NCBI GenBank assembly: GCA_964396335.1
Contig: CAYNEX010000001.1
Coordinates: forward strand, 762-64,761
Length of the DNA: 64,000 bases
Origin: an uncultured Steroidobacteraceae bacterium
GTDB lineage: Bacteria; Pseudomonadota; Gammaproteobacteria; Steroidobacterales; Steroidobacteraceae
Direction: 5' to 3'
The translations under genes were made by a program, and so were the position numbers. Shown piece after piece: positions 2,087-36,106 of this stretch. Each line of letters begins with the position of its first letter. The stretch's first letter is position 1. The notes under the pieces are model-generated. The model saw nothing but the letters and a program-made list of their open reading frames with translations, did not search any database and was not told where the DNA came from.

Positions 2087-2904
2087 GGACAGTCTGTTTT
2101 GTATCCGATCGCACCGGCGTCACGGCCGAGACGCTGGGGTACAGCCTGCTGGCCCAGTTCAGCGAGCTGGAAGTGCGCACCGTCACCATGCCCTTCGTGG
2201 CCTCGGTGAAGGATGCGCGCGGCGTGGTCGAACGCATCAACGAGATCGGCCGCCGGGAGGGGCAGCGGCCCATCGTGCTCTCCACGCTGGTGAACAGCGA
2301 GGTGCGGGCGGTGGTGCATTCGGCCGAGGCCTTCGTGCACGACTTCTTCGACGCCTTCCTCGCGCCACTGGAGGATGAACTGCAGATGCGCTCGGCGCAT
2401 GTGTCGGGCATCGAGGGGTTCCGGGGCGGGCGCGACCCGGCCAGCTCGATCCGTGTTGCCGCCACCGACTATGCGCTGTCGAATGATGACGGCGCCGGCG
2501 CGCGTGACTATCGCAGCGCGGCGGTGATCCTGATGGGCGTGTCACGCAGTGGCAAGACGCCCACCTGCCTGTACCTGGCGGTCCAGTACGGCATCTTCGC
2601 GGCCAACTATCCGCTCACCGAGGAGGATCTGGGCTCGGCCGAACTGCCGCCGGTGCTGCGGGGTTATCGCGAGAAGCTGTTCGGTCTGACCATCGACCCG
2701 GAGCGCCTGCGGCAGCTGCGCCAGGCGCGCCGGCCCGGCAGCCGATATGCGTCGGTGGCGCAGGTGGAACATGAGGTGCGCACGGCGCTGGAGATCTTCG
2801 ACCGCTACCGCATTCCCTACATCGACGTGACCCATCGAAGCGTGGAGGAGAATGCCAGCCGCATCCTGGACGGACTGCGGCTGGAGCGGCACGTGCGCAG
2901 CTGA
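2083..2904 (+). CDS. ppsR: PEP synthase regulatory protein (DUF299 bifunctional kinase/pyrophosphorylase)
   Basis: 273 aa. P-loop context [30 protein letters not shown] is typical of PpsR/YdiA. The ATG overlaps the ppsA stop (ATGA). Confidence 0.9.
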
Positions 2905-2914
2905 ACGTTGCGCG

Positions 2915-4516
2915 TCAGGCGGCGAGGCGCCGCTGCAGGTATTCCTCGTAACCGCCGCGGAAGTCGACGATGCCGCCACCCGGCTGCATCTCGATGATGC
3001 GCGTGGCCAGGCCCGTGACGAACTCGCGGTCGTGCGACACGAACACCAGCGTGCCCGGGTACTTCTCGAGCGCGATCTGCAGGGCCTCGATGGTCTCCAT
3101 GTCCATGTGGTTGGTGGGCTCGTCCATCAGCATCACGTTCGGATGCGTCAGGATCAGCTTGCCGTAGATCATGCGGCCCTTCTCGCCGCCGGACAGCACC
3201 TTCACCGACTTGCGCGCCTCGTCGCCGGAGAACAGCAGGCGACCGAGCGTGCCGCGCACCAGCTGGTCGTCATCGCCCTTGCCGGTCCACTGCGACATCC
3301 AGGTGAACAGGTCGAAGTCCTCGGCGAATTCGGCCTGCGGGTCCTGCGGCATGTAGCCCGGATCGGCGTTCTCGACCCATTCCAGCTTGCCGGCATCCGG
3401 CTGCAGCCGTCCGGCCAGCACCTGCATCAGCGTGGTCTTGCCGATGCCGTTCGGGCCGATGATGGCGACGCGCTCGCCGGCATCCACCTTGAAGGTGATG
3501 TTGTGCAGCACGTCGGCGTCGGTGCCCGGATAGCGGAACGACAGGTTCTCGATGTTGAACACGCCGCGATGCAGCTTCTTCGCCTGGTCGAAGCGGATGA
3601 ACGGGCTCTGGCGCGAGGAGGGACGCATTTCCTCGATCTTGATCTTCTCCAGCAGCTTCTTGCGCGAGGTGGCCTGGCGGGCCTTCGAGGCGTTGGCCGA
3701 GAAGCGGCGCACGAACTCCTGCAGGTCGGCGATGCGTTCCTTGGCCTTGGCGTTGGCCGCCTCGACGCGCTGGCGGGCCTGCATCGAGGCCAGCATGAAG
3801 TCGTCATAGTTTCCCGGATAGATCTTCAGCTGCTGGTAATCCAGGTCGGCGATGTGGGTGCACACCTGGTTCAGGAAGTGGCGATCGTGGCTGATGATGA
3901 TCATGGTGGCCTGGTAGTCGTTCAGCACGTCCTCCAGCCAGCGGATCGAATCGATGTCGAGGTTGTTGGTGGGCTCGTCCAGCAGCAGCACGTCCGGGCG
4001 CGAGAACAGCGCCTGCGCCAGCAGCACGCGCAGCTTCAGGCCGGGCGGGATCTCGCGCATCGGCAGCTCGTGCAGTTCCTTGGCGATGCCGGCATCGATC
4101 AGCACGTCACCGGCGCGGGCCTCGGCGTCATAACCGCCGTATTCGGCAAAGCGCGTCTCCAGTTCGGCGGCGCGCATGAAGTCGTCGTCGGTCGATTCCG
4201 GGTTGGCGTAGATGCGGTCGCGCTCGGTCATCGCCGCCCACATTTCGCGATGCCCCTGCATGACCACGTCGAGCACACGCTGGTCCTCGTAGCCGAACTG
4301 GTTCTGGCTCAGCTTGCCCATGCGCAGGCCGGGCTGCAGCACCACCTCGCCGGTGGTGGGTTCCAGCTCACCGCCCAGCACCTTCATCAGGGTGGACTTG
4401 CCGCAGCCGTTGGCGCCGATCAGGCCATAACGGTTGCCGTCGGCGAACTTGACGGTGACGTTCTCGAAAAGGGGCTTGGCTCCGAACTGCACGGAGACGT
4501 TCTGGGTGGACAGCAT
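2915..4516 (-). CDS. ybiT: ABC-F family ATPase (YbiT-like), two ABC cassettes and no TM domain
   Basis: 533 aa. Walker A appears twice (GLIGANGCGKSTLMKVLGG and IIGPNGIGKTTLMQVLAG). ABC signature LSGGEKGRM. AGGAAG RBS upstream of the ATG at 4516. Confidence 0.9.
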   Translation of the reverse strand: MLSTQNVSVQFGAKPLFENVTVKFADGNRYGLIGANGCGKSTLMKVLGGELEPTTGEVVLQPGLRMGKLSQNQFGYEDQRVLDVVMQGHREMWAAMTERDRIYANPESTDDDFMRAAELETRFAEYGGYDAEARAGDVLIDAGIAKELHELPMREIPPGLKLRVLLAQALFSRPDVLLLDEPTNNLDIDSIRWLEDVLNDYQATMIIISHDRHFLNQVCTHIADLDYQQLKIYPGNYDDFMLASMQARQRVEAANAKAKERIADLQEFVRRFSANASKARQATSRKKLLEKIKIEEMRPSSRQSPFIRFDQAKKLHRGVFNIENLSFRYPGTDADVLHNITFKVDAGERVAIIGPNGIGKTTLMQVLAGRLQPDAGKLEWVENADPGYMPQDPQAEFAEDFDLFTWMSQWTGKGDDDQLVRGTLGRLLFSGDEARKSVKVLSGGEKGRMIYGKLILTHPNVMLMDEPTNHMDMETIEALQIALEKYPGTLVFVSHDREFVTGLATRIIEMQPGGGIVDFRGGYEEYLQRRLAA

Positions 4517-6102: not shown

Positions 6103-7896
6103 ATGGCAAAACCAATGCAAACGCCGCTGCACCGCTTCAATTTCACGAAGCTGACGAAGGAACAGATCGGGCAGAAGCTGCGCGCGACCGAGGCCGGTCC
6201 GACCAGCGCTTCCGCGTTCTCGAATGTGCTGGCCGGCAGGACGCTGAAGATCATCACGAAGGACGGCCCGGTGCTGGAATACCGCTTCGGCACGAACCGC
6301 CGGCTGACGCTGAGCGAAAACGGCGGGCGTGCCGTGTCGGCGGGTTATGGCGAGCTGGCGTTGAACAAGCTGTTGTTCTTCTCGCACATGATCCCGGCCG
6401 AACAGAAGGGCTACAACGTGGTCATCGACCAGGCTACAAACCTCGCGACCGTGTTCGAGGTGTGGTTCTCCAGCGGCATCAGGCAGAACGCCGGCCGGCC
6501 GAATGAATTCACGCTGGATGACCGCGAGGTGCAGCGGCAGATCTATTTCGGGTACGTGGACAATGGCCAGCCGCCACCTGGGAACCTGCACCACTACACC
6601 AACCGCATCGCCGGCAAGGGCATCTGGTGGAAGCAGGATACCGGCATCGAGACCGTCGAACTGTATGCCTCGGTCGCCAACACCAATTTCGTCGAGCTGA
6701 CACGCCACGCGGACAACCTCAGCTGGGTGGCGCCGTCCGACTATGTGCTGATTGATGACCGCACCTTCGCCTACAACCGCACCGAGTGCGAGTTCTCCGG
6801 CATCCACACCTGCTTTGTGGTCGACCTGTACGACGTGAAGCAGATCGGCGTGCGGCTGGGGTTCAACGAGCGCGACGAGCTCGAGTACTACATGTTCCGC
6901 GGCGACGGCAAGGTGGTCGGACAGCTGGCGTACCTGGAGCCCTTCGACGAGCACGGCAAGAAGCCGCTGTTCGAGGTCAATGCCGGCGACCAGCCGGTGG
7001 CGAAGGGCGCGCGCGTGGCCTACCGGCCGGTGCGCAGCTTCACGCACATGACCGACGAGGCGGTGCATGAGGCTGCCCTGAAGCGCACCTCGGCATTCGG
7101 CAGCGCCGACGCTGCCGACGTGGCGCCGCAGGTGTCGATGGCCAGCAACAACATGCCGTTCTCCGACGTCCTCGTCGGCAAGGTCTTCACGGTGCGCCTG
7201 GACCACGGCGGGCCGGTGCGCGACTACCGCGTCAACGACAAGTTCAAGCTGCAGTTCCGTGACCACCGGGACAATGTCTGGCACGAGGTGGATTACCGCG
7301 CCTATGAGGGTGACACCAACCTTGCCTGGTTCAGCCACATCATCCCCGACAGCAAACCGCGCGCCAGCGTGCAGGTGGCGGTGGATTTCACCAATGGCCT
7401 GGTGACCAGCATCGAGTCCCACATGGGCACGCCGTATTACGGCAACGAGACCACCTATCGGGCGCTGTTCGGCGTGATCGAGATGGAAGGCATCGAGGCG
7501 CCGCTGTACATGCGGCATTCATTCACCGACGAGCTGGTGGGCCATGCCTGGTCCTGGTCCTATTCGGACCAGATGACTTCGATGCACCTGTATACCTCGC
7601 CGCACTCGATGTCGTGGACAATCTTCACCGCCAACCAGACCATGGGTTCGCAGTGGTGCTCGCCCTGCATCTACGTGAAGCTGCGCCCGGGCGTCTATCT
7701 GTTCTGCCAGAACGAGGAAGCCTGCAATGGCGCGCAGATGATCGAGCTGCTGAACACCAACATCTCGCATGACTGCGGCTTCAGCTTCAACGGCGGCGAG
7801 CGCGGCGTGAACCTGGGCGTGGTCGGCGGCATCGGCCGCCACATCGGCAAGTTCGACATCGCGCATTTCTACGGGCCGCGCAAGCGGGAGGTGTGA
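6103..7896 (+). CDS. Tandemly duplicated MoaF-like protein (two MoaF N+C modules), no signal peptide
   Basis: 597 aa. Two copies of the MoaF N-domain pattern (LAGRTLKIITKDGPVLEYRF and LVGKVFTVRLDHGGPVRDYRV). Two C-domain patterns (HYTNRIAGKGIWWK... and SFTDELVGHAWSWSYSD..YLFCQNEE) resemble Klebsiella MoaF (TDELIGK..YTYS..YLFVWREK). Confidence 0.7.
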   Translation: MAKPMQTPLHRFNFTKLTKEQIGQKLRATEAGPTSASAFSNVLAGRTLKIITKDGPVLEYRFGTNRRLTLSENGGRAVSAGYGELALNKLLFFSHMIPAEQKGYNVVIDQATNLATVFEVWFSSGIRQNAGRPNEFTLDDREVQRQIYFGYVDNGQPPPGNLHHYTNRIAGKGIWWKQDTGIETVELYASVANTNFVELTRHADNLSWVAPSDYVLIDDRTFAYNRTECEFSGIHTCFVVDLYDVKQIGVRLGFNERDELEYYMFRGDGKVVGQLAYLEPFDEHGKKPLFEVNAGDQPVAKGARVAYRPVRSFTHMTDEAVHEAALKRTSAFGSADAADVAPQVSMASNNMPFSDVLVGKVFTVRLDHGGPVRDYRVNDKFKLQFRDHRDNVWHEVDYRAYEGDTNLAWFSHIIPDSKPRASVQVAVDFTNGLVTSIESHMGTPYYGNETTYRALFGVIEMEGIEAPLYMRHSFTDELVGHAWSWSYSDQMTSMHLYTSPHSMSWTIFTANQTMGSQWCSPCIYVKLRPGVYLFCQNEEACNGAQMIELLNTNISHDCGFSFNGGERGVNLGVVGGIGRHIGKFDIAHFYGPRKREV

Positions 7897-8627
7897 TGGA
7901 CATCTTCAAGTCGTTCCGCCGACAGGCGGGAGCGGATACGGGGCGCCGCGCCTTCCTCTGGAGATTCGGCGCCGGAACCGCCGGTGCGATGGCCTCGGTG
8001 GCCGTGACTGCGAAGCCGGCAGGCGCCGAAGATCCCGCGCTGCGGGCGGCCTTGCTCGACGAAGAGAAGGCGCTGCGCAAGCTGCACCGGGATTTCCAGC
8101 AGGCCATCGATGAAGGGCGCCATGCGGAGGTCGTCGCGCTGTTCGCCGACGACGCGCAGGTGATCTTCAACGGCGGCGTGTTCGAGCGACGCGACCACGG
8201 CATCAGCCGGCTGTTCCGCGAGCATCTGCCGGCCCGCAAGGCCGGCGGCAGCATGCAGGCCGCGCCCGGATTCGCGTTGTCGCCCGCGCAGCAGCACGAT
8301 CGGGTCGAGGTGGCAAAGGATCTTCGTGCCGCCAGCGCGGTGTTCCCATATTCCATCCAGTGCGGCATGCCGATCGAATCCGGCAACTCGCTGGCCAGCA
8401 TGGCGCGGCTGCACGGCGAAGGGGTTCGCACCTGGTGGGAGGGTGGCCACTACCGCGTGGATTACCGCAAGGATGCGGAGGGCCGCTGGCAGATCAGCCG
8501 GCTCGAGTACGACACGGTGGTGCGCGCCGACTACCGGCCGGGACGCTCATATGCCAGCGCCATTTCGGTGCCCCGGCTGACGACGCGGTTCCCGCAGGAC
8601 CTGCAGGGACCGGACCGGCTGGCGTGA
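7893..8627 (+). CDS. Tat-signal NTF2-like (SnoaL_4-type) protein
   Basis: 244 aa. Twin-arginine motif TGRRAFLW followed by a hydrophobic stretch ending AKPAGA. SnoaL_4-like helix LRKLHRDFQQAIDEGRHAEVVALFADDAQVIF. Terminal strand EGRWQISRLEY. GTG 7893 or ATG 7896 overlaps the MoaF-like stop (TGA 7894-7896). GGGAGG RBS. Confidence 0.7.
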   Translation: MMDIFKSFRRQAGADTGRRAFLWRFGAGTAGAMASVAVTAKPAGAEDPALRAALLDEEKALRKLHRDFQQAIDEGRHAEVVALFADDAQVIFNGGVFERRDHGISRLFREHLPARKAGGSMQAAPGFALSPAQQHDRVEVAKDLRAASAVFPYSIQCGMPIESGNSLASMARLHGEGVRTWWEGGHYRVDYRKDAEGRWQISRLEYDTVVRADYRPGRSYASAISVPRLTTRFPQDLQGPDRLA

Positions 8628-9509: not shown

Positions 9510-10916
9510 ATGATCAAGCGCATCCTTCCCCTGCTGCTGCTGGTCGCCGCACCCTTCGCTGCTGCGGATTCCAACGACGACCTGTTCGAGGCCGCCGGCC
9601 AGGGCGATGTGGGCCGTCTTTCGCAGGCGCTGGAGCACGGCGCCGAGCCGGATGCGCGCGGTGCCGGTGAAATCACGCCGCTGATGCTGTCGGCCGAACG
9701 AGGCCACCTGGATGTGGTGCGCGCGCTGCTGGCCGCGGGCGCGAACGTGCATGCGCAGCGTGCCGGTGGCATCACGCCGCTGATGCATGCCGCCGCCTGT
9801 GGCAACCCGGGCCTGGTCAAATTGCTGCTGGACGCGGGTGCGAAGGTGGATGCGCGCGCCACCGACCAGGGTATCTCCGCGCTGCGTGTCGCCGTGGCCA
9901 CCGGTTCGCTGGATGTCGCCCGCCTGCTGCTTGAGTCCGGCGCCGATCGCAATGAGGTCGATGAAAGCGGTGCGCGCCTGCTGTTCACTGCCGCCGGTGC
10001 AGGCTCGGTGCCGCTGCTCGAGCTGCTGCTGGTGGAAGGCGAGGACGTCAACCACAAGCGCAGGGAGGGGGGCTACACCGCGCTGGATGTCGCCCTTGAA
10101 CGCCATCACTGGGCGGCCGCGCAATACCTGCTGGAACATGGCGCGACGCTGGCCGCCTCGATGACCGGCAAGGACGGCGTGCTGCGCAAGCTGCTGGAAC
10201 TGGAACCGGTGCTGCAGCCGCAGCGACAGAACACGCTGGTGCAGTCGGTGGAGATGCCCAGCGCCGAACTGTTCCGCGCCGTGCTGGCGCAGGGCGCCAC
10301 GACCAGCTATCGCGACGAGAAGGGCAACACGCTGCTGATGCTGGCTGCCAATCGCCATCATGTCACCGGCATCGAGGCGCTGCTGGCGACCGGTGCCGAT
10401 GTGCACGCACGCAATGCCGATGGTGACACGGCGCTTTCGATCGCCGCCGGCAAGAGCGAATACGAGCTGATCGTGGCCGGCATCGGCATGGCGCTGGGGC
10501 AGGACCGTGAATCGCTGATGCGCGTGATCTTCCGTCCGGCTGCCAAGAGCCACGAGTCCCCGTCGACCGCCAGGCGCCTGCACATCGCGCGTCTGCTGCT
10601 GGCGGCGAAGGCCGACCCCAATGTGGCCGATGCCAACGGCAACACGCCGCTCATGGAAGCCACGCGCACCGGCGATGCCGAACTGGTGTCGCTGCTGATC
10701 GAGGCCGGTGCCGGCGTCAATGCGCGCAACAGCCACGGCAGTGCGCCGGTGCTGATGGCGGCGCAGTTCGGCATGCAGGAAATCGCCGGCACGCTGCTGG
10801 CGGCCCGCGCCGATCTGGACGTGCGCGATGCCGACGGCAAGGGTCCGCTGGACCTGGCCCGTGCCGGCGGCCATGACGGCCTGGTGCGCCTGCTGGAGCA
10901 GGCCCGGCTGAACTGA
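9510..10916 (+). CDS. Secreted ankyrin-repeat protein (at least 10 repeats)
   Basis: 468 aa. Sec signal MIKRILPLLLLVAAPFAAADS. Repeated TPLM..A...GH..VV..LL..GA.V.A units, e.g. TPLMLSAERGHLDVVRALLAAGANVHAQ and TPLMHAAACGNPGLVKLLLDAGAKVDAR. Confidence 0.9.
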   Translation: MIKRILPLLLLVAAPFAAADSNDDLFEAAGQGDVGRLSQALEHGAEPDARGAGEITPLMLSAERGHLDVVRALLAAGANVHAQRAGGITPLMHAAACGNPGLVKLLLDAGAKVDARATDQGISALRVAVATGSLDVARLLLESGADRNEVDESGARLLFTAAGAGSVPLLELLLVEGEDVNHKRREGGYTALDVALERHHWAAAQYLLEHGATLAASMTGKDGVLRKLLELEPVLQPQRQNTLVQSVEMPSAELFRAVLAQGATTSYRDEKGNTLLMLAANRHHVTGIEALLATGADVHARNADGDTALSIAAGKSEYELIVAGIGMALGQDRESLMRVIFRPAAKSHESPSTARRLHIARLLLAAKADPNVADANGNTPLMEATRTGDAELVSLLIEAGAGVNARNSHGSAPVLMAAQFGMQEIAGTLLAARADLDVRDADGKGPLDLARAGGHDGLVRLLEQARLN

Positions 10917-12211: not shown

Positions 12212-12631
12212 ATGCAGGAACCGCGTGCCACGCCATCACCCGCCAGCCTGGATTTCCCGCTCGCGCTGATCGAGGAATTCCGCGCCAGCTATGCACCGGA
12301 CATCGTCTGGACGGCGCCCCGTCGCGGGGTGCAATGGTCGGGCCGTGACCAGGTGGTCACCAACCTGCTGCGCGAGGCGGCGGCGATGCAATCGCTGACC
12401 TTCACGCGCGTGCGCCGCAGCCGCAGCGACGAGAAGGTCATCGACGAGTTCGTGGTGCGATTCGTTTATGCCGGCGAGGGCATCGAGAACCTGCAGTTTC
12501 CGCCCGGCGCCGCCGTGGAACTGGAGCGGGTGCGTATCCTGGAATTGGCGGGCCAGCAGGTGGTGCGCGAAGCGGCGATCGAGACCTGGACGCTGCTGGC
12601 GCAGCGCGCCGCGGGTGCCGTCACTCCGTGA
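12212..12631 (+). CDS. Small NTF2-like/SnoaL-like protein (cytoplasmic)
   Basis: 139 aa with strong third-position G/C bias. Pattern of an N-terminal helix and a C-terminal beta-sheet (VELERVRILELAGQQVVREAAIETW) is consistent with the NTF2-like fold. The 3' end overlaps the convergent gene by 11 nt. Confidence 0.55.
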   Translation: MQEPRATPSPASLDFPLALIEEFRASYAPDIVWTAPRRGVQWSGRDQVVTNLLREAAAMQSLTFTRVRRSRSDEKVIDEFVVRFVYAGEGIENLQFPPGAAVELERVRILELAGQQVVREAAIETWTLLAQRAAGAVTP

Positions 12632-13115
12632 ACACCACCAGCTTGCGCGAGCGGATCCGCCAGCGGCCGTCCTGCTTCACCAGACGGTCCTCGGAGCGCC
12701 CGAATCCACCGGCGACATAGCGGTTCTCGTCATTGCGGCGCAGGGTCTGCCAGTACGACTGGTACAGCGCCTCGTTGTCGCCGGTGAATGAAATCCGTTC
12801 ATTGCTGATCACATGGTAGAGGCGGCCGGCCGGTCGGCCCGCCTCGCGGTTGGCCTGCTGGCGCGCGGCCATGTCGGTCACCACCCTGCGGATGGCTTCG
12901 TGCCCCTTGATCAGGGTGCCGTTCGAATCGATCTCGGCGTCTTCGGTGAACACCGCCACGTAACCTTCCGCGTCCAGCGAGTCCACGCTCCACACGTACT
13001 GCTGCATCACTTCGTGGATGGCAGCGCGGTCGTCGAGGCGCGCCTGGAAACCGGCGGACTGGGACAGTGCCGGCAGCGATGCGGCCAGCAGCAGGAGGGG
13101 CAGCAGTCTTCGCAT
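12621..13115 (-). CDS. Secreted SnoaL_4-type NTF2-like protein
   Basis: The supplied ORF was trimmed to the internal ATG (13115), giving signal peptide MRRLLPLLLLAASLPALSQSAG. Hallmark LDDRAAIHEVMQQYVWSVDSLDAEGYVAVFTEDAEID. Terminal strand KQDGRWRIRSRKL. Confidence 0.75.
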   Translation of the reverse strand: MRRLLPLLLLAASLPALSQSAGFQARLDDRAAIHEVMQQYVWSVDSLDAEGYVAVFTEDAEIDSNGTLIKGHEAIRRVVTDMAARQQANREAGRPAGRLYHVISNERISFTGDNEALYQSYWQTLRRNDENRYVAGGFGRSEDRLVKQDGRWRIRSRKLVVFTE

Positions 13116-13341
13116 GGTTGCACCTGGGGCGGTCGGGGTGTCGGGGACTATACCGCCGGGGAGGGCGCCGGAAAGCGAAGCCGGCGGCAGGGCGCCGCGC
13201 TTCTGCCCGTTCCTGCAAGAACCAGCACCTCTCTGGTCATTCCTTTCGAGGACACTTGCGCCACGCTTGCGGACTGAGATCATCCGCCCCGGTGAGGGCA
13301 GCGGACATTCACGGATCGGCCAACGGCCCAGGAAGGACAGC

Positions 13342-15504
13342 ATGAGCACGCTTCGCCATATCCAGCGCGCGGGATTCCTCTGCATGGCACTGCTGGCAGG
13401 CATGCTGGCCACGCCGCTGCAGGCCGCCCAGGCGGACAACACCGCGCTCGACGAGCTGGCCCGCGACACCGAACGCGCCGAGGCCATCCGCGCCGTGAAG
13501 AAGCTGCAGCATGCCTATTCGCAGTATGCGCAATACGGCCTGTGGAGCGACCTGGGCGCGCTGTTCGCCCGTGACGGCGAGTGGATCTGGGGCGATACCA
13601 CCGTGACGGGCCCGGCCGCGATCACCGCACATCACACCGACAAGGTGGGCGGCGGCCGCGCCGGCCTGCCCGAGGGTGTGGTCAACAGCCTGTTCGTCGA
13701 CGTGCCGCTGGTGAACCTGTCGGTGGATGGAAAGACCGCGCAGGCGCGCTGGTATGGCATCCACATGCTGGGCGGCGCGGCGGACGCGCGCTGGGAAAGC
13801 GGCACCTTCCAGAACGACTACGTGCTCGAGGACGGCGTCTGGAAGATTGCGCGCCTGCATTTCCACCCGCAGTTCGGCGGACCGTATGAGCAGGGCTGGA
13901 AGACCTTTGCCAGCCCACTGCCGCGCGTGCCTTATCACTTCAGGACCGAGGCGGAAGCAGGCACCCCGATTCCGCCGCCGTCAGGGCCCGCGCCGCGCAC
14001 GCGGGCAACGCTCGCCAGCCTCGAGAAGCGCATCGACACGCTCAATGCCGAGGATGCCGCGCGCAACCTGCAGAACGCGTATGGCTATTACGTCGACCGC
14101 AAGATGTGGGATGACGTCACCGACCTGTTCACCGCCGACGGCGTGCTCGAACTGGGCGGCATCGGCCTGTATGACGGCCCGGCCAACATCCGCCGCGCGC
14201 TGGAGCGGCATGGACCGGCCGGCCTGAAGGAAGGGCAGCTGCACGATCACCCGCTGTTCGACACCAATATCGAGATCTCGGCCGACGGCATGGAGGCGCA
14301 GCTGCGTGGCCTCGAGCTCGGCATGCTCGGCGACTACAGCAGCGGCACTGCGCACTGGGCCGTCAGTGTGTTCGTGAACCGTTTCGTGAAGCAGGATGGC
14401 GTGTGGAAGATCCGCGAGATGCGGGTGTTCCCGTTGCTGAAGACCGACTTCTACCAGGGCTGGGGCAAGAGCCGCATCGGCGTTGAAACGCCGGAGCAGC
14501 GCTTCGCGCCGAACCGGCCGCTGCCGGCTGCGGATGCGGGCGCGAACCTGATTCCCGCTTTCCTGCCGCATCCGGTCACCGGCCGTGAGGCCAGCTATCC
14601 GCGCGGCGCGCGCGTGGCGGCGAAGTCGCGGCTGCTGCCGGCGCCGGCCGCGCCGAAGGTGCAGGCTGTCGCGGGTTCGACCGATGAACGCATCGCCGAG
14701 GCGCGCCGCCGGCTGGCGCTGTCGATGGCATGGGATGGCGCGGCCAACATCACCGCCGCCTACACGCACTACATCGACGACAGCCAGTGGACCAGCATGG
14801 GCGCGATCTTCGCCCGCAACGGCAACAAGCAGGTGCCGTTCAATGGTTATTACATCGGGCCGGAGCGCATCGCGCATCGCCCCGGCGCTCGACCGGCGCC
14901 CAACGGCACCAATCCCGGCAATGGTGGCTGGCACTGGCTGATGCAGCCGGTGATCCACGTCGCGCCGGACGGACGTTCGGCCAAGATGCGCACGCGCCTG
15001 TTCCATCCGCTGCCCACCGCCACCGGCGGCATGATGGAAGGCGGCATGTATCCGAACAACCAGGCCGTGCTGGAGGACGGTGTCTGGAAATTGTGGACCA
15101 TCACCATCGACGAGCCGTATTTCACCGGCCGCTGGCCGACCGGCTGGGCGCGGCCGGCACCGCCGGCTCCGCCGCGCGGCGCAGCCGCCGGGGCACCGGG
15201 AGCGGCTGCCGGCGCTCCACGCGGTGGCGGCGGGGCCGGAAGTGCGCCGGCCACACCGCCGTTGCCGGGCGCCATCCTCTATCCGCCCAACATCTCCAAT
15301 GCGCTGCTCGGCCGCCGCATGGAAGGTTTCGTCGGCGGCACCGGTGAGCCCGTCCGCTGGCCCGGCCTGCTGCCGATGTGGTTCCACTACAAGAATCCGG
15401 TCAGCGGCCGGGAGCCGGAGCGCTACTGGCCCAACTGCGCCACCTGCGAATACGCACCCGGCACCAGCATGGACCAGTACGGCTACCTGCTGCCGGAGAC
15501 CTGA
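13342..15504 (+). CDS. Secreted protein with three tandem NTF2-like (SnoaL_4-type) modules
   Basis: The supplied ORF was trimmed to ATG 13342 (AGGAAGGA RBS; signal peptide ...ATPLQAAQA). Three modules each begin with an A.R.LQ.AY..Y.D...W helix and end with an EDGVWKI-type strand plus GW. Gly/Ala/Pro linker at about 15140-15270. C-terminal PHPVTG and KNPVSG motifs. Confidence 0.8.
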   Translation: MSTLRHIQRAGFLCMALLAGMLATPLQAAQADNTALDELARDTERAEAIRAVKKLQHAYSQYAQYGLWSDLGALFARDGEWIWGDTTVTGPAAITAHHTDKVGGGRAGLPEGVVNSLFVDVPLVNLSVDGKTAQARWYGIHMLGGAADARWESGTFQNDYVLEDGVWKIARLHFHPQFGGPYEQGWKTFASPLPRVPYHFRTEAEAGTPIPPPSGPAPRTRATLASLEKRIDTLNAEDAARNLQNAYGYYVDRKMWDDVTDLFTADGVLELGGIGLYDGPANIRRALERHGPAGLKEGQLHDHPLFDTNIEISADGMEAQLRGLELGMLGDYSSGTAHWAVSVFVNRFVKQDGVWKIREMRVFPLLKTDFYQGWGKSRIGVETPEQRFAPNRPLPAADAGANLIPAFLPHPVTGREASYPRGARVAAKSRLLPAPAAPKVQAVAGSTDERIAEARRRLALSMAWDGAANITAAYTHYIDDSQWTSMGAIFARNGNKQVPFNGYYIGPERIAHRPGARPAPNGTNPGNGGWHWLMQPVIHVAPDGRSAKMRTRLFHPLPTATGGMMEGGMYPNNQAVLEDGVWKLWTITIDEPYFTGRWPTGWARPAPPAPPRGAAAGAPGAAAGAPRGGGGAGSAPATPPLPGAILYPPNISNALLGRRMEGFVGGTGEPVRWPGLLPMWFHYKNPVSGREPERYWPNCATCEYAPGTSMDQYGYLLPET

Positions 15505-30458: not shown

Positions 30459-31162
30459 CCGCCAGCCGCGGCAAGCGGCTGGGACTGCTTGCGCTGTGTG
30501 CCATCGGCATCCTGCTGTTCGGCTCGCTGGGCGCGTGGCAGGTGCAGCGCCTGGGCTGGAAGCGCGACCTGATCGCGCGCGTTGATTCGCGCATCCACGC
30601 TGAGCCGGTTTCCCTTCCACCGCGGGCGGAATGGTCCAGGCTCGAGCCGCATGATGTCGAATACCGGCGCGTGCAGCTGCACGGCCACTTCCTCTACCAG
30701 CACGACACCCTGGTGGACGCGGTCACTGAACTGGGCGATGGCTGGTGGGTACTCACGCCGCTGGAGAGCGATGAGGGACTTGTGTGGGTGAATCGTGGCT
30801 TCGTCCCGCGGGAGCAGGGCGGTTCGATTCCGGGCACGCAGGGCAAGGGTGAGGTGCAGGTTACCGGCCTGCTTCGCCGCACCGAACCGGAGGGCCGCAT
30901 CCTGCGCCCCAATCGCCCGGAGGAAGCCCGCTGGTTCTCCCGCGACGTGCAGGCCATGGCCGCGGCGCGCGGGCTGGGCGAGGTGGCGCCGTTCTTCATC
31001 GATGCCGAAGCGCAGCCCGGCAGCAATGAATGGCCACGTGGCGGCATGACGGTGGTGACCTTCCGCAATGCCCACCTGAGTTACGCCCTGACCTGGTTCG
31101 GGCTGGCGGGCCTGTGCGCGGCGGGAGGCGTGCTGGTGCTGCGCGATTCGCCCAGCGCTTAG
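30455..31162 (+). CDS. SURF1-family assembly protein
   Basis: The GTG start at 30455 overlaps the cyoD stop (GTGA). N-terminal TM plus WQVQRLGWKRDLIARV, and a C-terminal TM (LSYALTWFGLAG), are typical of SURF1/Shy1. Confidence 0.8.
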   Translation: MTASRGKRLGLLALCAIGILLFGSLGAWQVQRLGWKRDLIARVDSRIHAEPVSLPPRAEWSRLEPHDVEYRRVQLHGHFLYQHDTLVDAVTELGDGWWVLTPLESDEGLVWVNRGFVPREQGGSIPGTQGKGEVQVTGLLRRTEPEGRILRPNRPEEARWFSRDVQAMAAARGLGEVAPFFIDAEAQPGSNEWPRGGMTVVTFRNAHLSYALTWFGLAGLCAAGGVLVLRDSPSA

Positions 31163-33283: not shown

Positions 33284-34069
33284 TCAGCGGCGTGGTGGCT
33301 CCGCCAGTGGCTGCGAGCCGTCCACCATGCGGCCCACCTTCAGGGCCTCCATCTGTTCCTTCGTCCCGGGAGGCGCGGCATAGGCACCGACCTCGTCGCG
33401 ATCCGGCTTGAACACATTGCCCGTGACCGGGTTCGGGTAGTGGAATGGAATGATGTAGTAGGCCGGGTAGGTCAGGTAGATGGTGGAAGGCGGCAGGTCC
33501 GGCGGTGGATCGAACTTGTCCGGCCAGGTGTTGTTCAACGCATTGCGCCCCCAGCCTTCCCAGTTGGTGTACATCGTGAACGGACCGGTGAGCCGGCTGA
33601 TCTTCCAGACGCCGTTCTCCTTGCGGTATTCGTTCTCGTACATCGGCAGGCCCCAGCCGCCCGAGCTCATCACATAGGCGCGCGCGCGGATCCAGCCGCG
33701 GGTGCCATCGGCGGAGATGTCGGGGATCGACTGGAACTGCATGTGGTTGGCCAGCGAGTTCTCCTTCGCGCCATCCGGGCCGAAGGCGGTCTGCATGTAC
33801 TCCAGCACGCGGTGCTTGCCGAGGAACAGGCCCTTGCCGCCGATCTCCAGCGTGGCGTCGTCGCTGAACAGGTCGGCCAGCGGCGTCCACTGGCTCTTGT
33901 CGACGAAGTAGCCATAGGTGCGCTGCAGGCGCTCGATGTCGTTCATGTCCTCCAGCGTGGTGATGCGCTTGTCGAGGGCATCGAGCCGCTCGGCAGCGGA
34001 CTGCGCCAGCGCGCCGGTGGAGGTGAGGGCGGCCAGCACGGCCGCTGCGATCAGGGTTGTGCGCTTCAT
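33284..34069 (-). CDS. Secreted NTF2-like (SnoaL_4-type) protein, paralogue 3 of the trio
   Basis: 261 aa. Sec signal ...STGALAQS. LEDMNDIERLQRTYGYFVDKSQWTPLADLFSDDATLEI. YENEYRKENGVWKISRL. GWGRN. PPPDLPPST. YPNPVTG. ATGA overlap with the upstream paralogue. Confidence 0.8.
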   Translation of the reverse strand: MKRTTLIAAAVLAALTSTGALAQSAAERLDALDKRITTLEDMNDIERLQRTYGYFVDKSQWTPLADLFSDDATLEIGGKGLFLGKHRVLEYMQTAFGPDGAKENSLANHMQFQSIPDISADGTRGWIRARAYVMSSGGWGLPMYENEYRKENGVWKISRLTGPFTMYTNWEGWGRNALNNTWPDKFDPPPDLPPSTIYLTYPAYYIIPFHYPNPVTGNVFKPDRDEVGAYAAPPGTKEQMEALKVGRMVDGSQPLAEPPRR

Positions 34070-34815
34070 CGTACGGCTCCCGTGACGCTGTCCGCGGCCT
34101 GTGGCAGGCGGTCGAGCGGCTGCCCGGTGACCGGATGCGGATAGCTGAAGGGTGGAATGTAGTTGCCCGGCATGGTGCGGTAGACCACGGTGGGCGGCCG
34201 GTCCGGCGGGAAGATCGCGCTGGGGCCCTTCATCGGCAGCAGCGATCGGGCCCAGCCGCGGTCATAGTCGGTGAACGCAGTGGGATAGAAATGCAGCCGC
34301 TGGATCTTCCAGGTGTTGCCTTCCTTCACGTATTCGTTCTCGTAGATGCCCACGCCCCAGATGCCGTTCTGGCCCGGCTCGGCCAGCTGTACCGGGCCCT
34401 GGAAACGTCCCTTTGCGGTGCGGCCGTCGCTGGCAACCGTGATCACCGGCTGCAGCATCATGTGGTTGTTCAGGTAACCACGGCCGAGGTTCTCCGGTCC
34501 GAACAGCAGCATTGCGCGGCGGATGCGATCGGGACCGACATACACGCCGCTCTGGCCATATTCGAACTCGCCGTTGCGGGCGAAGAGGCTGGCGGCCTCG
34601 TTCCACAGGCCCTTGTCGAAGTAGTAGCCGAACATCGCCTGCAGGTTCTCGATGGCGTCGTGGTCCTCCAGGCGCGCAACGCGTTCACGATAGGCGGCAA
34701 GGCGCTGTGCCGGCGTGGCATTGGCGCCCGGCGACTGCGCGGCAAGGGCCGGCGCGGTGGCCAGCAGCAGGCCGGCGACGGCGGCGGCGGAAATGAACTG
34801 GAACGGGCGGGCCAT
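34066..34815 (-). CDS. Secreted NTF2-like (SnoaL_4-type) protein, paralogue 2 of the trio
   Basis: 249 aa. Signal ...ATAPALAAQS. LEDHDAIENLQAMFGYYFDKGLWNEAASLFARNGEFEY. YENEYVKEGNTWKIQRL. GWARS. PPDRPPT. YPHPVTG. Its ATG shares one base with the upstream stop (TGATG). Confidence 0.8.
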   Translation of the reverse strand: MARPFQFISAAAVAGLLLATAPALAAQSPGANATPAQRLAAYRERVARLEDHDAIENLQAMFGYYFDKGLWNEAASLFARNGEFEYGQSGVYVGPDRIRRAMLLFGPENLGRGYLNNHMMLQPVITVASDGRTAKGRFQGPVQLAEPGQNGIWGVGIYENEYVKEGNTWKIQRLHFYPTAFTDYDRGWARSLLPMKGPSAIFPPDRPPTVVYRTMPGNYIPPFSYPHPVTGQPLDRLPQAADSVTGAVR

Positions 34816-35516
34816 CAGCGGACTCCTTTCACCGGCTTGCCGGTGACCGGGTTGGGCGCCTGGAAGGGCGGCACCTGCGGATCGGGGAAGGCGGCATAGG
34901 TTTCGGTCGGCGGCCGATCCGGCGGGAAGTCCCGCGAGGTCTGGCTGGCCTTCAGGCCTTCGCCGGGCTTCAGGCGCGCCCAGCCTTTCTCATAGGGCAC
35001 CTCGAAGTTCACGTACAGGTGCAGGGACTTGATCTTCCACACCCCGTCTTCTTTCACGTAGGTGTTCTCGTAGATGCCATCGCGCCATTCGGCGTGCTTC
35101 TTGTACTGGCCCAGCATGCCGTGGTCGCGCCAGCGCGCGGTGGCGCTGCGGCCGTCGGCGGAGATGAACACCGCCGGCTGCAGCGTCACCCATTCGTTGA
35201 GCTGGCCGTAGATCAGGCCCTCCTGGTTGCCATGCAGGCGCTTCAGGTATTCGCGGATGCGCGCCTTGCCCACGTACACGCCATCAAGGCCGATCTCGAT
35301 GGTGCCGTTGTCGGCGAACAGGTCGGCCGCCTCGCCCCACAGGCCGCGGTCGACGTAATAACCGAAGGCGCGCTGCAGTTTCTTCACCGCGCGCGTGCCT
35401 TCGAGTTTCTCGACGCGCGCGGTCAGCGCGTCGATCTCCGCGTCGATGTTCTGCGCCTGCGCGTTGGCGCAGGCCAGCATCGACATGACGAGGCAGGTAC
35501 TCAGCAATCGTTTCAT
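34815..35516 (-). CDS. Secreted NTF2-like (SnoaL_4-type) protein, paralogue 1 of the trio
   Basis: The supplied ORF was trimmed to ATG 35516 (GGAGA RBS). Signal or lipobox MSMLAC|ANAQA. LEGTRAVKKLQRAFGYYVDRGLWGEAADLFADNGTIEI. YENTYVKEDGVWKIKSL. GWARL. PPDRPPT. APNPVTG (34839-34856). Confidence 0.8.
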   Translation of the reverse strand: MKRLLSTCLVMSMLACANAQAQNIDAEIDALTARVEKLEGTRAVKKLQRAFGYYVDRGLWGEAADLFADNGTIEIGLDGVYVGKARIREYLKRLHGNQEGLIYGQLNEWVTLQPAVFISADGRSATARWRDHGMLGQYKKHAEWRDGIYENTYVKEDGVWKIKSLHLYVNFEVPYEKGWARLKPGEGLKASQTSRDFPPDRPPTETYAAFPDPQVPPFQAPNPVTGKPVKGVR

Positions 35517-35548: not shown

Positions 35549-36106
35549 TCATCGGCCGGTTGCTCTTCTTTCGCGGATGAACTTCATCCATTCCTCCGCG
35601 GTGGGCATCACAGGATAGTCGACGCGCCGCAGGATCTTCCATTCGCCGTGTTCGCGGACCAGCTCATCCTCATAGCGGCCGGCCAGCGCCGGAACGGGTT
35701 CGCCGCCGGGTCCGCGCATCACCAGCAGGTGCCGCGAGCGCGCCGTGGCGCGATCACCCTGCACATCGATCTGCGGATTCGAGGTGATGTGGTAACTCTC
35801 GTTGTTCACATAGTCGGCCGGCGTGGGGCCGTACAGGTCGAGCAGCATGCTGTGGATGGCCTCGCGGCCCTTGTGCACGGTGCGGCCGTTGACCCATTCA
35901 CCGTCGCGCGCGAACAGCGCGACGTAGGCTTCGTAGTCACGCGCATCCTGCGTGGCGGAGTAATCGACCAGGATGCGGCGGATGGCCAGTTCGTCCTCGA
36001 CGCGCTGCAGGCGTTCGGCCAGTCCGGCCTGCGCGGCACGGTCGGTGCACGCGGCGGTCAGGGCAGATGCCATCAGCACCAGCGCGAGCTGCACGGTCCG
36101 CTTCAT
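35549..36106 (-). CDS. NTF2-like (SnoaL_4-type) lipoprotein
   Basis: 185 aa. Lipobox ALTAAC|T. VEDELAIRRILVDYSATQDARDYEAYVALFARDGEWVNG. Terminal strand EHGEWKILRRV. Confidence 0.75.
   Translation of the reverse strand: MKRTVQLALVLMASALTAACTDRAAQAGLAERLQRVEDELAIRRILVDYSATQDARDYEAYVALFARDGEWVNGRTVHKGREAIHSMLLDLYGPTPADYVNNESYHITSNPQIDVQGDRATARSRHLLVMRGPGGEPVPALAGRYEDELVREHGEWKILRRVDYPVMPTAEEWMKFIRERRATGR

What the first reader, a model, noticed from the sequence alone, without database searches (positions are those of the whole stretch)
13342..15504. A 720-aa secreted protein fuses three copies of the same NTF2-like module (Rosetta-stone evidence for the trio)
The protein has three modules. Each starts with an A.R.LQ.AY..Y.D..W helix and ends with an EDGVWK(I/L) strand followed by GW. 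That is the layout of the three separate coupled paralogues at 33284-35516. It also carries the tail motifs PHPVTG and KNPVSG. A three-domain fusion alongside a three-gene coupled set in one genome segment suggests the three separate proteins work as a heterotrimer-like unit. It also suggests the module functions in threes.
Basis: partly seen in the sequence, partly recalled or inferred. Interest (0 to 1): 0.65.

Follow-up and report, generated by a model that had tools for sequence, protein, structure and literature searches.

The report
Exported three-domain NTF2-like pseudo-trimer protein
This gene joins three copies of a small enzyme fold, whose solved relatives work as trimers, into one exported protein in which only the third copy keeps a complete, invariant catalytic centre; the family is widespread and uncharacterised, but it is not the fused form of the neighbouring three-gene set.

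Summary
Window 13342-15504 (+) encodes a 720-aa protein with one Sec-type signal peptide and three SnoaL_4/NTF2-like modules, each followed by a C-terminal arm.

The closest solved relative is the lignin-dimer lyase LdpA. LdpA is a homotrimer held together by the same kind of C-terminal arm, so "the module works in threes" is well grounded. AlphaFold2 gives a confident compact model (pLDDT 89.8, pTM 0.89).

The Rosetta-stone logic holds only in part:
- D1, D2 and D3 belong to three old, position-specific clades and are not orthologues of trio genes A, B and C.
- The fusion and the trio co-occur in at least three genomes, so they are paralogous systems.
- True A-B-C fusions, collinear with the gene order, do exist elsewhere (94 of the 120 best hits; pTM 0.91). 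Those fusions support a trio heterotrimer.

The fusion is asymmetric. The Tyr/Asp/His/Tyr catalytic set is invariant in D3, partly eroded in D2 and lost in D1. LdpA's second motif is absent from all three.

Most likely this is a periplasmic, cofactor-free lyase or dehydratase pseudo-trimer with an unknown substrate. Relatives occur in 274 species genomes, and none has been characterised.

The parts
13330..13337 (+). Shine-Dalgarno-like AGGAAGGA, 4 nt upstream of the ATG
   Evidence: Read directly from the sequence.
13342..15504 (+). Complete gene for the 720-aa triple SnoaL_4 (NTF2-like) protein, stop codon included
   Evidence: GC3 is 0.84. Full-length homologues are 45-82% identical.
13342..13434 (+). 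Sec-type signal peptide (aa 1 to about 28-31; LQA|AQA|D)
   Evidence: The hydrophobic region scores 2.47 on Kyte-Doolittle. 74 of 80 homologues have one, and there is none internally. The cleavage site is inferred.
13438..13995 (+). Module D1 (aa 33-218): long N-terminal helix, NTF2 cone and a short arm (VPYHF). The catalytic dyad is lost: Gln64 stands in place of Asp and there is no His.
   Evidence: pLDDT is 90-99. It sits in the position-1 clade, 85% bootstrap.
13996..14667 (+). Module D2 (aa 219-442): NTF2 cone plus an arm ending in PHPVTG. Asp252 and His303 are present here but vary in the family (D60/N20; H46/R32).
   Evidence: It sits in the position-2 clade, 100% bootstrap.
14668..15501 (+). 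Module D3 (aa 443-720): NTF2 cone with invariant Tyr474, Asp479, His531 and Tyr570, followed by a long arm ending in YKNPVSGR and an invariant CxxC.
   Evidence: D3 holds 44 of the 86 invariant columns. It sits in the position-3 clade, 100% bootstrap.
15187..15270 (+). Pro/Ala/Gly-rich low-complexity linker inside the D3 arm (aa 616-643)
   Evidence: This is the only internal segment with pLDDT below 50. Short 9-12 nt tandem repeats lie at 15153-15195.
15436..15447 (+). Invariant Cys699-x-x-Cys702 in the C-terminal tail
   Evidence: Both columns are invariant in the 80-sequence alignment. The disulfide or metal role is inferred.
34815..35516 (-). Trio gene A (233 aa, own signal peptide). Asp is present, but the His position is Trp.
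34066..34815 (-). Trio gene B (249 aa, own signal peptide). The Asp/His dyad is kept. It overlaps A by 1 nt.
33284..34069 (-). Trio gene C (261 aa, own signal peptide). The Asp/His dyad is kept. It overlaps B by 4 nt.

Best explanation
The gene encodes an exported, most likely periplasmic, single-chain pseudo-trimer of SnoaL_4/NTF2-like cones.

In the solved relative LdpA, three identical subunits form a ring, and each C-terminal arm clasps the neighbouring subunit. Here the three subunits are one polypeptide. Each arm appears to run over the next cone and into that cone's long N-terminal helix. The conserved last arm (YKNPVSGR...CxxC) would then close the ring back onto D1.

The three cones have specialised. 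D3 keeps the full Tyr/Asp/His/Tyr apparatus used by SnoaL_4 dehydratases and lyases, namely a His-Asp acid-base dyad plus two Tyr that hold an oxyanion or phenolate. It is the catalytic cone. D2 is partly eroded, and D1 is a catalytically dead structural cone.

The likely chemistry is a cofactor-free elimination (dehydration or lyase type) on an unknown carbonyl- or phenol-bearing compound, possibly derived from plant cell walls. It is not LdpA's deformylation.

Shown: the architecture, the signal peptide, conservation, the residue pattern, the confident compact model, and the family's spread.
Inferred: the ring geometry, the arm paths, catalysis, and the substrate class.
For: - Three SnoaL_4 stretches.
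- LdpA is the best match by sequence (E 4e-20 for the fusion, 1e-32 for trio B, with the alignment running through the arm to the HPV motif) and by fold (Foldseek E 4e-12, TM 0.63-0.68 normalised to the target).
- LdpA is a homotrimer stabilised by its C-terminal arm, confirmed by SEC-SAXS (PMC9942872).
- AlphaFold2 gives pLDDT 89.8 and pTM 0.89 for 720 residues. Most of the largely coil arms have block-mean pLDDT of 85-98, and only the 616-643 linker is disordered.
- In 80 homologues Y474, D479, H531 and Y570 are 100% invariant. D252 is D60/N20 and H303 is H46/R32. Position 64 is Q75/H5, and D1 has no conserved His. The same position-specific pattern holds across the wider set of 50%-identity representatives.
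- There is a single signal peptide.
- 274 species genomes encode full-length relatives.
- Neighbouring genes are catabolic: Amidohydro_2, SDR, AraC, MFS, TonB-dependent receptor and aldehyde dehydrogenase.
- Some relatives are fused to a BD-FAE/Abhydrolase_3 esterase or to an NMT1-like solute-binding domain.
- The source is compost and manure metagenomes, and contigs from compost RNA libraries match the gene.
Against: - No coordinates were available, so C3-like ring geometry and arm exchange were not checked. pTM shows confident packing, not its symmetry.
- LdpA's motif II (Glu143-Tyr165-Gln170) is absent from every module, so the reaction cannot be carried over from LdpA.
- There is no conserved operon partner: the commonest neighbour occurs in only 24 of 80 loci. 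The substrate is therefore unknown.
- No member of this clade has been tested, and no paper was found.
- The RNA evidence comes from assembled contigs that may include DNA.
Confidence: 0.6

Rival explanations
1. This is a classical Rosetta-stone fusion: D1, D2 and D3 are the fused orthologues of trio genes A, B and C, so the fusion directly reports the trio's complex and subunit order.
For: D1 is closest to A: 41% identity and 140-151 bits for the D1 profile against 107-126 for B and 66-69 for C. D1 and the window's A have both lost the catalytic His.
Against: The D2 profile scores A and B equally. The D3 profile prefers B or A, and C is worst for every domain. D1, D2 and D3 sit in position-specific clades with 85, 100 and 100% bootstrap that exclude A, B and C. 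A, B and C are closer to LdpA (36-39%) than to D2 or D3. Both systems co-occur in three genomes. Real A-B-C fusions form a separate family.
Confidence: 0.07
2. It is a non-catalytic periplasmic protein. The three cones would act as binding pockets or a scaffold, for example a carrier for hydrophobic or aromatic compounds handed to a transporter or to partner enzymes.
For: NTF2-like cones often bind ligands without catalysis (established knowledge). D1, and in many homologues D2, lack the dyad. Some relatives are fused to an NMT1-like solute-binding domain. TonB-dependent receptor and MFS genes recur nearby.
Against: All four catalytic-type residues in D3 are 100% invariant across 80 sequences of 45-82% identity and across the other position-3 clades. 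That is hard to explain by binding alone. The nearest characterised relatives, LdpA and PcfL, are enzymes.
Confidence: 0.2
3. It is three independent enzyme domains on flexible linkers (beads on a string). In that case the fusion reflects co-expression of three activities rather than a trimer-like assembly.
For: Tandem NTF2 proteins with separate active sites are known. The two-domain Lsd19 appeared among the Foldseek hits.
Against: pTM 0.89 with high-confidence inter-module segments argues for fixed packing. The linkers are the conserved arm segments that mediate trimer contacts in LdpA. D1 has no catalytic residues.
Confidence: 0.08
4. It is an annotation or assembly artefact: three adjacent genes read as one.
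For: None beyond the fact that split trios exist.
Against: The frame is uninterrupted. There is one signal peptide and no internal hydrophobic stretch. Collinear full-length homologues occur in 274 species genomes, including complete isolate genomes. The sequence is held in full (share of sampled words 1.00) in 19 listed public runs.
Confidence: 0.01

Closest known systems
[quoted passage not shown] SYK-6 (PDB 8ABT-8ABW), and its homologue PcfL
   Same: It has the same SnoaL_4/NTF2 cone with a long N-terminal helix and an extended C-terminal arm ending in an HPV-type motif. It is the best match by sequence and by fold. It assembles in threes. The Tyr35/Asp40/His97/Tyr147 equivalents are kept in D3.
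   Different: LdpA is a 251-aa protein whose alignment to trio B starts at its residue 4, after trio B's signal peptide. It forms a homotrimer with three identical sites. The window protein is exported, is a single chain of three diverged modules, has one invariant site, and lacks the LdpA-specific Glu-Tyr-Gln motif II in all modules. Identity is only about 30%.
Other trimeric SnoaL_4 enzymes: LinA dehydrochlorinase, BaiE bile-acid 7-alpha-dehydratase and scytalone dehydratase
   Same: They share the fold and the His-Asp dyad with Tyr chemistry (Foldseek hits; weak sequence hits). That they are homotrimers is established knowledge and was not tested here.
   Different: They are about 150-190 aa, lack the long arm, are cytoplasmic, are about 18-20% identical, and act on unrelated substrates.
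The A-B-C single-chain fusions (for example P0243, P0393, P0405) and the split A/B/C trio of this window
   Same: They share the module type, the arms and the signal peptide, and they form a confident compact model (pTM 0.91). They occur in the same bacterial groups (Steroidobacteraceae, Sphingomonadaceae).
   Different: They are a separate lineage. A, B and C are about 40% identical to each other and 24-36% identical to D1-D3. A/B/C-type modules keep the Asp in 86-96% and the His in about 48-77% of cluster representatives, whereas the D-type family shows strong position-specific decay.
Lsd19 (lasalocid epoxide hydrolase), a two-domain NTF2 fusion
   Same: It is a tandem fusion of NTF2-like cones in one chain (Foldseek hit).
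   Different: It has two domains that are both catalytic and act in sequence, it is not a trimer mimic, and the match is poor (TM 0.33 normalised to the target).

Membership tests
Pfam SnoaL_4 (PF13577), NTF2-like superfamily | Profile match above the gathering score | tested here: met
   214 bits against a 24-bit cutoff, in three stretches.
Pfam SnoaL_4 (PF13577), NTF2-like superfamily | Alpha+beta cone fold | tested here: met
   The AlphaFold2 secondary structure shows helices followed by 4-5 long strands in each module. Foldseek hits to LdpA, LinA, BaiE and a scytalone-dehydratase-like protein have probability 1.00.
LdpA/PcfL-type stilbene-forming deformylase | Close sequence and structure similarity, including the C-terminal arm | tested here: met
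   E 4e-20 for the fusion and 1e-32 for trio B, aligned through the arm. Foldseek E 4e-12.
LdpA/PcfL-type stilbene-forming deformylase | Motif I: the His-Asp dyad (NaLdpA Asp40 and His97) with Tyr35 and Tyr147 | tested here: inconclusive
   It is met and invariant in D3, present but not conserved in D2, and absent in D1.
LdpA/PcfL-type stilbene-forming deformylase | Motif II: the Glu143-Tyr165-Gln170 triad, essential for dehydroxylation (Glu143 variants are inactive) | tested here: not met
   No module and no trio member keeps the triad. The Glu position is E/A/E in D1-D3 but is not conserved, and the Tyr165 and Gln170 positions are F/V/I and G/K/T.
LdpA/PcfL-type stilbene-forming deformylase | Homotrimer of identical, non-exported subunits | tested here: not met
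   This is a single chain of three diverged modules with a signal peptide. Trio B's alignment to LdpA starts at LdpA residue 4 and trio B residue 30, after the signal peptide.
LdpA/PcfL-type stilbene-forming deformylase | Activity on erythro-DGPD or DCA-C with release of formaldehyde | not testable with these tools
   This needs an enzyme assay.
Rosetta-stone fusion of the window's A-B-C trio | Each fused domain is the orthologue of one separate gene, in a consistent order | tested here: not met
   Profile scores, the identity matrix and the bootstrapped NJ tree all fail this test. The feature is met instead by the separate P0243-type family.
Covalent pseudo-trimer (single-chain mimic of a homotrimer) | Three homologous modules packed around a pseudo-threefold axis as in the parent trimer | tested here: inconclusive
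   Three modules are present, pTM is 0.89 and the arms are modelled with high confidence, and the parent LdpA is a trimer.

The most novel reading that the evidence does not exclude
The D1-D2-D3 proteins, together with the related families built around an E-type middle module, may be a widespread and so far unrecognised class of periplasmic, cofactor-free lyases or dehydratases. They would be built as asymmetric single-chain trimers in which one conserved catalytic cone (D3) is served by two retired cones that bind, position or gate a bulky substrate. They would act on plant-cell-wall or lignin-derived oligomers before uptake into the cell. That would extend LdpA-type chemistry from the cytoplasm to the periplasm.
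Probability: 0.2. Interest if true: 0.65.

Novelty: new variant of a known kind. Interest (0 to 1): 0.45.

Why it matters
This is a clean natural example of a homo-oligomeric enzyme fold converted into a single chain and then sub-functionalised. One cone stays catalytic, one decays and one is dead.

The family is large and untouched. At least 274 species genomes carry it, and more than 1,400 protein clusters (90% identity) match at E<=1e-5. It occurs in soil, compost and sediment bacteria: Steroidobacteraceae, Sphingomonadales, Acidobacteriota and some actinomycetes.

Its nearest characterised relatives cleave lignin dimers without cofactors. The family is therefore a reasonable place to look for new periplasmic enzymes acting on plant-derived aromatics.

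For the neighbouring trio, the work gives a concrete and testable prediction: an A-B-C heterotrimer.

Tried and rejected
- NCBIfam gave no family for the fusion or for any trio member.
- Conserved neighbours were sought across 80 loci. No operon partner emerged. The commonest neighbour occurs in at most 24 of 80 loci, and the immediate upstream and downstream genes differ from clade to clade.
- The PQQ alcohol dehydrogenase next to the trio looked like a functional link, but it is absent from the five other trio contexts examined.
- The secreted ankyrin gene recurs near both systems but is not general: it appears in a handful of the 93 loci held.
- One-to-one domain-to-gene orthology was tested by BLAST, profiles, clustering and a bootstrapped NJ tree, and was rejected.
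- Literature searches for triple or tandem SnoaL/NTF2 proteins and for periplasmic SnoaL_4 proteins found nothing relevant.
- The promoter and terminator scan around the gene found nothing above shuffle expectation.
- Model coordinates could not be read, so the ring geometry was not measured.
- No maximum-likelihood program was available, so the deep branching of A, B, C and LdpA remains unresolved.
Full report
**1. The observation**

Window 13342-15504 (+) is an uninterrupted ORF of 720 codons. An AGGAAGGA ribosome-binding site sits 4 nt upstream of the ATG. GC3 in this frame is 0.84 in a window of 67% G+C. The long ORFs on the other strand failed the same composition filter (GC3 above 0.80, GC2 below 0.58).

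Pfam SnoaL_4 matches three separate stretches with a whole-protein E-value of 5.9e-64. I cut the protein at residues 33-218 (D1), 219-442 (D2) and 443-720 (D3). The modules are 27-34% identical to each other and 25-41% identical to the three proteins encoded at 33284-35516 (-).

The two tail motifs are among the most conserved parts of the family: Y683, N685, V687, G689 and R690 are invariant, and P411, T413 and G414 are nearly invariant in 80 homologues.

The N-terminus is a Sec-type signal peptide. 74 of 80 homologues have an equivalent hydrophobic N-terminal region. There is no second hydrophobic stretch inside the protein.

**2. What the module is**

The only close solved structures are 8ABT, 8ABU, 8ABV and 8ABW. 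The E-value is 4e-20 for the fusion and 1e-32 for trio protein B, and the alignment runs through the tail to "HPV". These entries are LdpA, the cofactor-free erythro-DGPD gamma-formaldehyde lyase of sphingomonads (PMC9942872).

[quoted passage not shown] SEC-SAXS confirmed the trimer in solution.

The paper also defines the catalytic residues:
- Motif I is the His97-Asp40 dyad (NaLdpA numbering).
- Tyr35 and Tyr147 form the proposed oxyanion hole.
- Motif II, specific to LdpA, is the Glu143-Tyr165-Gln170 triad.

So "the module works in threes" is an experimentally established property of the nearest relative.

**3. Structure of the fusion**

AlphaFold2 with an 80-sequence alignment gives mean pLDDT 89.8 and pTM 0.89 over 720 residues. 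Only the signal peptide and a Pro/Ala/Gly-rich insert (residues 616-643) are poorly modelled.

Each module shows a helix of about 30-40 residues, short helices and four or five long strands. The largely coil arm segments between modules have block-mean pLDDT of about 85-98. That is expected if they are packed on a neighbouring cone.

Foldseek against the PDB puts the LdpA chains first (E 4e-12, TM 0.63-0.68 normalised to the target, about 30% identity). Behind them come the two-domain Lsd19, a scytalone-dehydratase-like protein, LinA and BaiE.

I could not read coordinates. The compactness is therefore shown, but the ring geometry is inferred from LdpA.

**4. Asymmetry**

I mapped the LdpA residues onto the modules and onto the 80-sequence family alignment.

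| Module | Tyr35 equivalent | Asp40 equivalent | His97 equivalent | Tyr147 equivalent |
|---|---|---|---|---|
| D3 | Tyr474, 80/80 | Asp479, 80/80 | His531, 80/80 | Tyr570, 80/80 |
| D2 | Tyr247, 78/80 (W2) | Asp252, D60/N20 | His303, H46/R32 | mostly Phe (F62/Y10) |
| D1 | Tyr59, 78/80 (W2) | Gln64, Q75/H5 | no conserved His | Phe156, F60/Y18 |

D3 and its arm carry 44 of the 86 invariant columns. These include a CxxC pair, C699 and C702.

LdpA's motif II is not kept in any module or trio member. The protein therefore has one fully conserved active site, and its chemistry cannot simply be copied from LdpA.

**5. Distribution**

The fused architecture is a large family without functional annotation.
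- 1,490 protein clusters at 90% identity match at E<=1e-5. More than 100 of them are full length at 45-82% identity. All are labelled hypothetical or "nuclear transport factor 2 family protein".
- A scan of one genome per species found relatives in 274 genomes. These include Steroidobacteraceae and other Gammaproteobacteria, Acidobacteriota (Vicinamibacterales), many Sphingomonadales, Hyphococcus, Parvularcula and Marinicaulis, and a few actinomycetes such as Nonomuraea and Thermopolyspora.

The closest relative is 82% identical and lies in a Steroidobacteraceae MAG. It shares the local gene order MoaF-like, SnoaL_4, TauE, ankyrin, fusion, cupin, gamma-glutamyltransferase.

Beyond that, no neighbour is conserved. 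The most frequent neighbouring families reach at most 24 of 80 loci. They are Amidohydro_2, SDR, AraC, MFS, TonB-dependent receptor, aldehyde dehydrogenase, BNR and DUF6282, the usual content of catabolic islands.

The sequence occurs in compost and manure metagenomes. Exact-match contigs from compost RNA libraries lie inside the gene.

**6. Is the fusion the Rosetta stone for the trio?**

Profiles built from D1, D2 and D3 of 80 homologues were scored against A, B and C from three genomes.

| Profile | A (bits) | B (bits) | C (bits) |
|---|---|---|---|
| D1 | 140-151 | 107-126 | 66-69 |
| D2 | 157-172 | 156-171 | 102-109 |
| D3 | 63-77 | 72-83 | 58-60 |

An exhaustive phmmer search with B against 1.84 billion cluster representatives gave 2,065 hits. 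Among the best 150, plus 11 D-family reference sequences, 68 have three modules, 53 have two, 38 have one, one has four and one has five. Some of the shorter ones are gene fragments.

I clustered 322 modules and built an NJ tree with 100 bootstraps. The modules of the D-type fusions form three position-specific clades:
- first position: D1 with clusters 51, 52, 54, 56 and 58, 85% support;
- second position: D2, cluster 28 and cluster E, 100%;
- third position: D3 with clusters 1, 3, 4, 5, 11, 13 and 16, 100%.

A, B, C and LdpA sit in an unresolved central group. A, B and C are about 40% identical to each other, 36-39% identical to LdpA, and only 24-36% identical to D1-D3.

The D-type fusion is therefore an old triplication with its own history. 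It is not the fused version of this trio. Two MAGs besides the window's organism carry both systems: CAZKNH01 (L016 and L091) and CAYMAF01 (L018 and L093).

**7. The real Rosetta stone**

The same survey turned up single-chain proteins whose modules classify as A, B and C in that order (P0241, P0243, P0244, P0248, P0251). It also found A-B and B-C two-module forms and one A-C-B.

A search with P0243 gave 1,699 hits at E<=1e-30. The 120 best classify as follows:

| Architecture | Count |
|---|---|
| A-B-C | 94 |
| A-C-B | 15 |
| B-C | 7 |
| other | 4 |

Many of these come from Steroidobacteraceae. 58 of 66 aligned A-B-C fusions have an N-terminal signal-like hydrophobic region, and the inter-module linkers read in P0243 carry no signal-like stretch. 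They are therefore true fusions and not read-through. AlphaFold2 of P0243 gives pLDDT 90.9 and pTM 0.91.

The split trio is itself conserved as A (233-243 aa), B (245-261 aa) and C (260-266 aa), with overlapping stop and start codons, in six different genomic surroundings.

Together with LdpA's trimer, this supports an A-B-C heterotrimer.

**8. Function**

What is shown:
- an exported single chain;
- three LdpA-like cones with arms;
- one invariant Tyr/Asp/His/Tyr site;
- a catabolic genomic neighbourhood;
- a compost habitat, with RNA-library contigs matching the gene.

What is inferred:
- a ring-shaped pseudo-trimer closed by the last arm;
- cofactor-free elimination chemistry (dehydratase or lyase) in D3;
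- structural or substrate-handling roles for D1 and D2.

Weak hints to substrate class come from relatives that carry extra domains. Some have a C-terminal BD-FAE/Abhydrolase_3 esterase (P0252, P0486). Others have an N-terminal NMT1-like solute-binding domain (P0264, P0287). Genes for such proteins also occur as neighbours.

The main rival is a non-catalytic binding or scaffold role. It is disfavoured by the absolute conservation of all four catalytic-type residues in the third module across deep clades.

**9. Novelty**

No paper in the searchable library describes a three-module SnoaL_4 protein or a periplasmic member of this clade. The fold, the trimer principle and the dyad are known. The single-chain, exported, asymmetrically decayed form is a new variant of a known kind.

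Interest is moderate. The finding is a tidy evolutionary case and a defined target family, but it has no substrate and nothing about it is mechanistically surprising.

Noticed in passing
window 6103-8627 (+); 12212-12631 (+); 12621-13118 (-); 35549-36106 (-): The window is unusually rich in NTF2-like genes, with ten modules in 64 kb. Besides the fusion and the trio there are four more. One is a 244-aa SnoaL_4-like protein with a twin-arginine-type signal (RRAFLW), translationally coupled to a 597-aa MoaF-like protein. One is a 139-aa SnoaL_2 protein. Two are small SnoaL_4 proteins with signal peptides, one divergent from the fusion and one directly upstream of the trio (that arrangement is also seen in L010 and L092).
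   Followed up: partly
window 9510-10916 (+); L001 8401-9846; L048 about 2804-4072; L007 3726-5270; L091 5624-7237: A secreted ankyrin-repeat protein (signal peptide MIKRILPLLLLVAAPFAAA) lies upstream of the fusion. Ankyrin genes also flank the fusion in two other loci and the A-B-C trio in two of six contexts. The link is recurrent but not general, and it is unexplained.
   Followed up: partly
window 31159-33219 (-): A quinohaemoprotein PQQ alcohol dehydrogenase (TIGR03075, 546 bits, with a C-terminal cytochrome c domain) starts 64 bp downstream of trio gene C. It is not next to the trio in the five other contexts examined, so the link is probably local.
   Followed up: yes
P0252, P0486, P0264, P0287, P0055 (relatives from other sources): Some three-module relatives carry extra domains: a C-terminal BD-FAE/Abhydrolase_3 esterase, or an N-terminal NMT1/THI5-like solute-binding domain. 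One protein has five modules (D1-D2-x-D1-D2). P0422, P0424 and P0432 have an N-terminal extension of about 300 aa with no Pfam match.
   Followed up: partly
L017 and L080 (tandem, same strand); L012 (adjacent, opposite strand): Three genomes carry two copies of the D-type fusion gene side by side.
   Followed up: no
window 15187-15270 (+): A Pro/Ala/Gly-rich insert in the D3 arm coincides with short 9-12 nt DNA tandem repeats at 15153-15195. It is longer here than in the family consensus, which suggests a slippage-prone, length-variable linker.
   Followed up: no
window 13342-15504 in public runs X1-X20 and X27-X33: The gene is held in full (share of sampled words 1.00) in 19 compost and manure metagenome runs from several studies. 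Fragments appear in compost metatranscriptome assemblies. The organism therefore seems to be a common compost Steroidobacteraceae-like gammaproteobacterium.
   Followed up: partly
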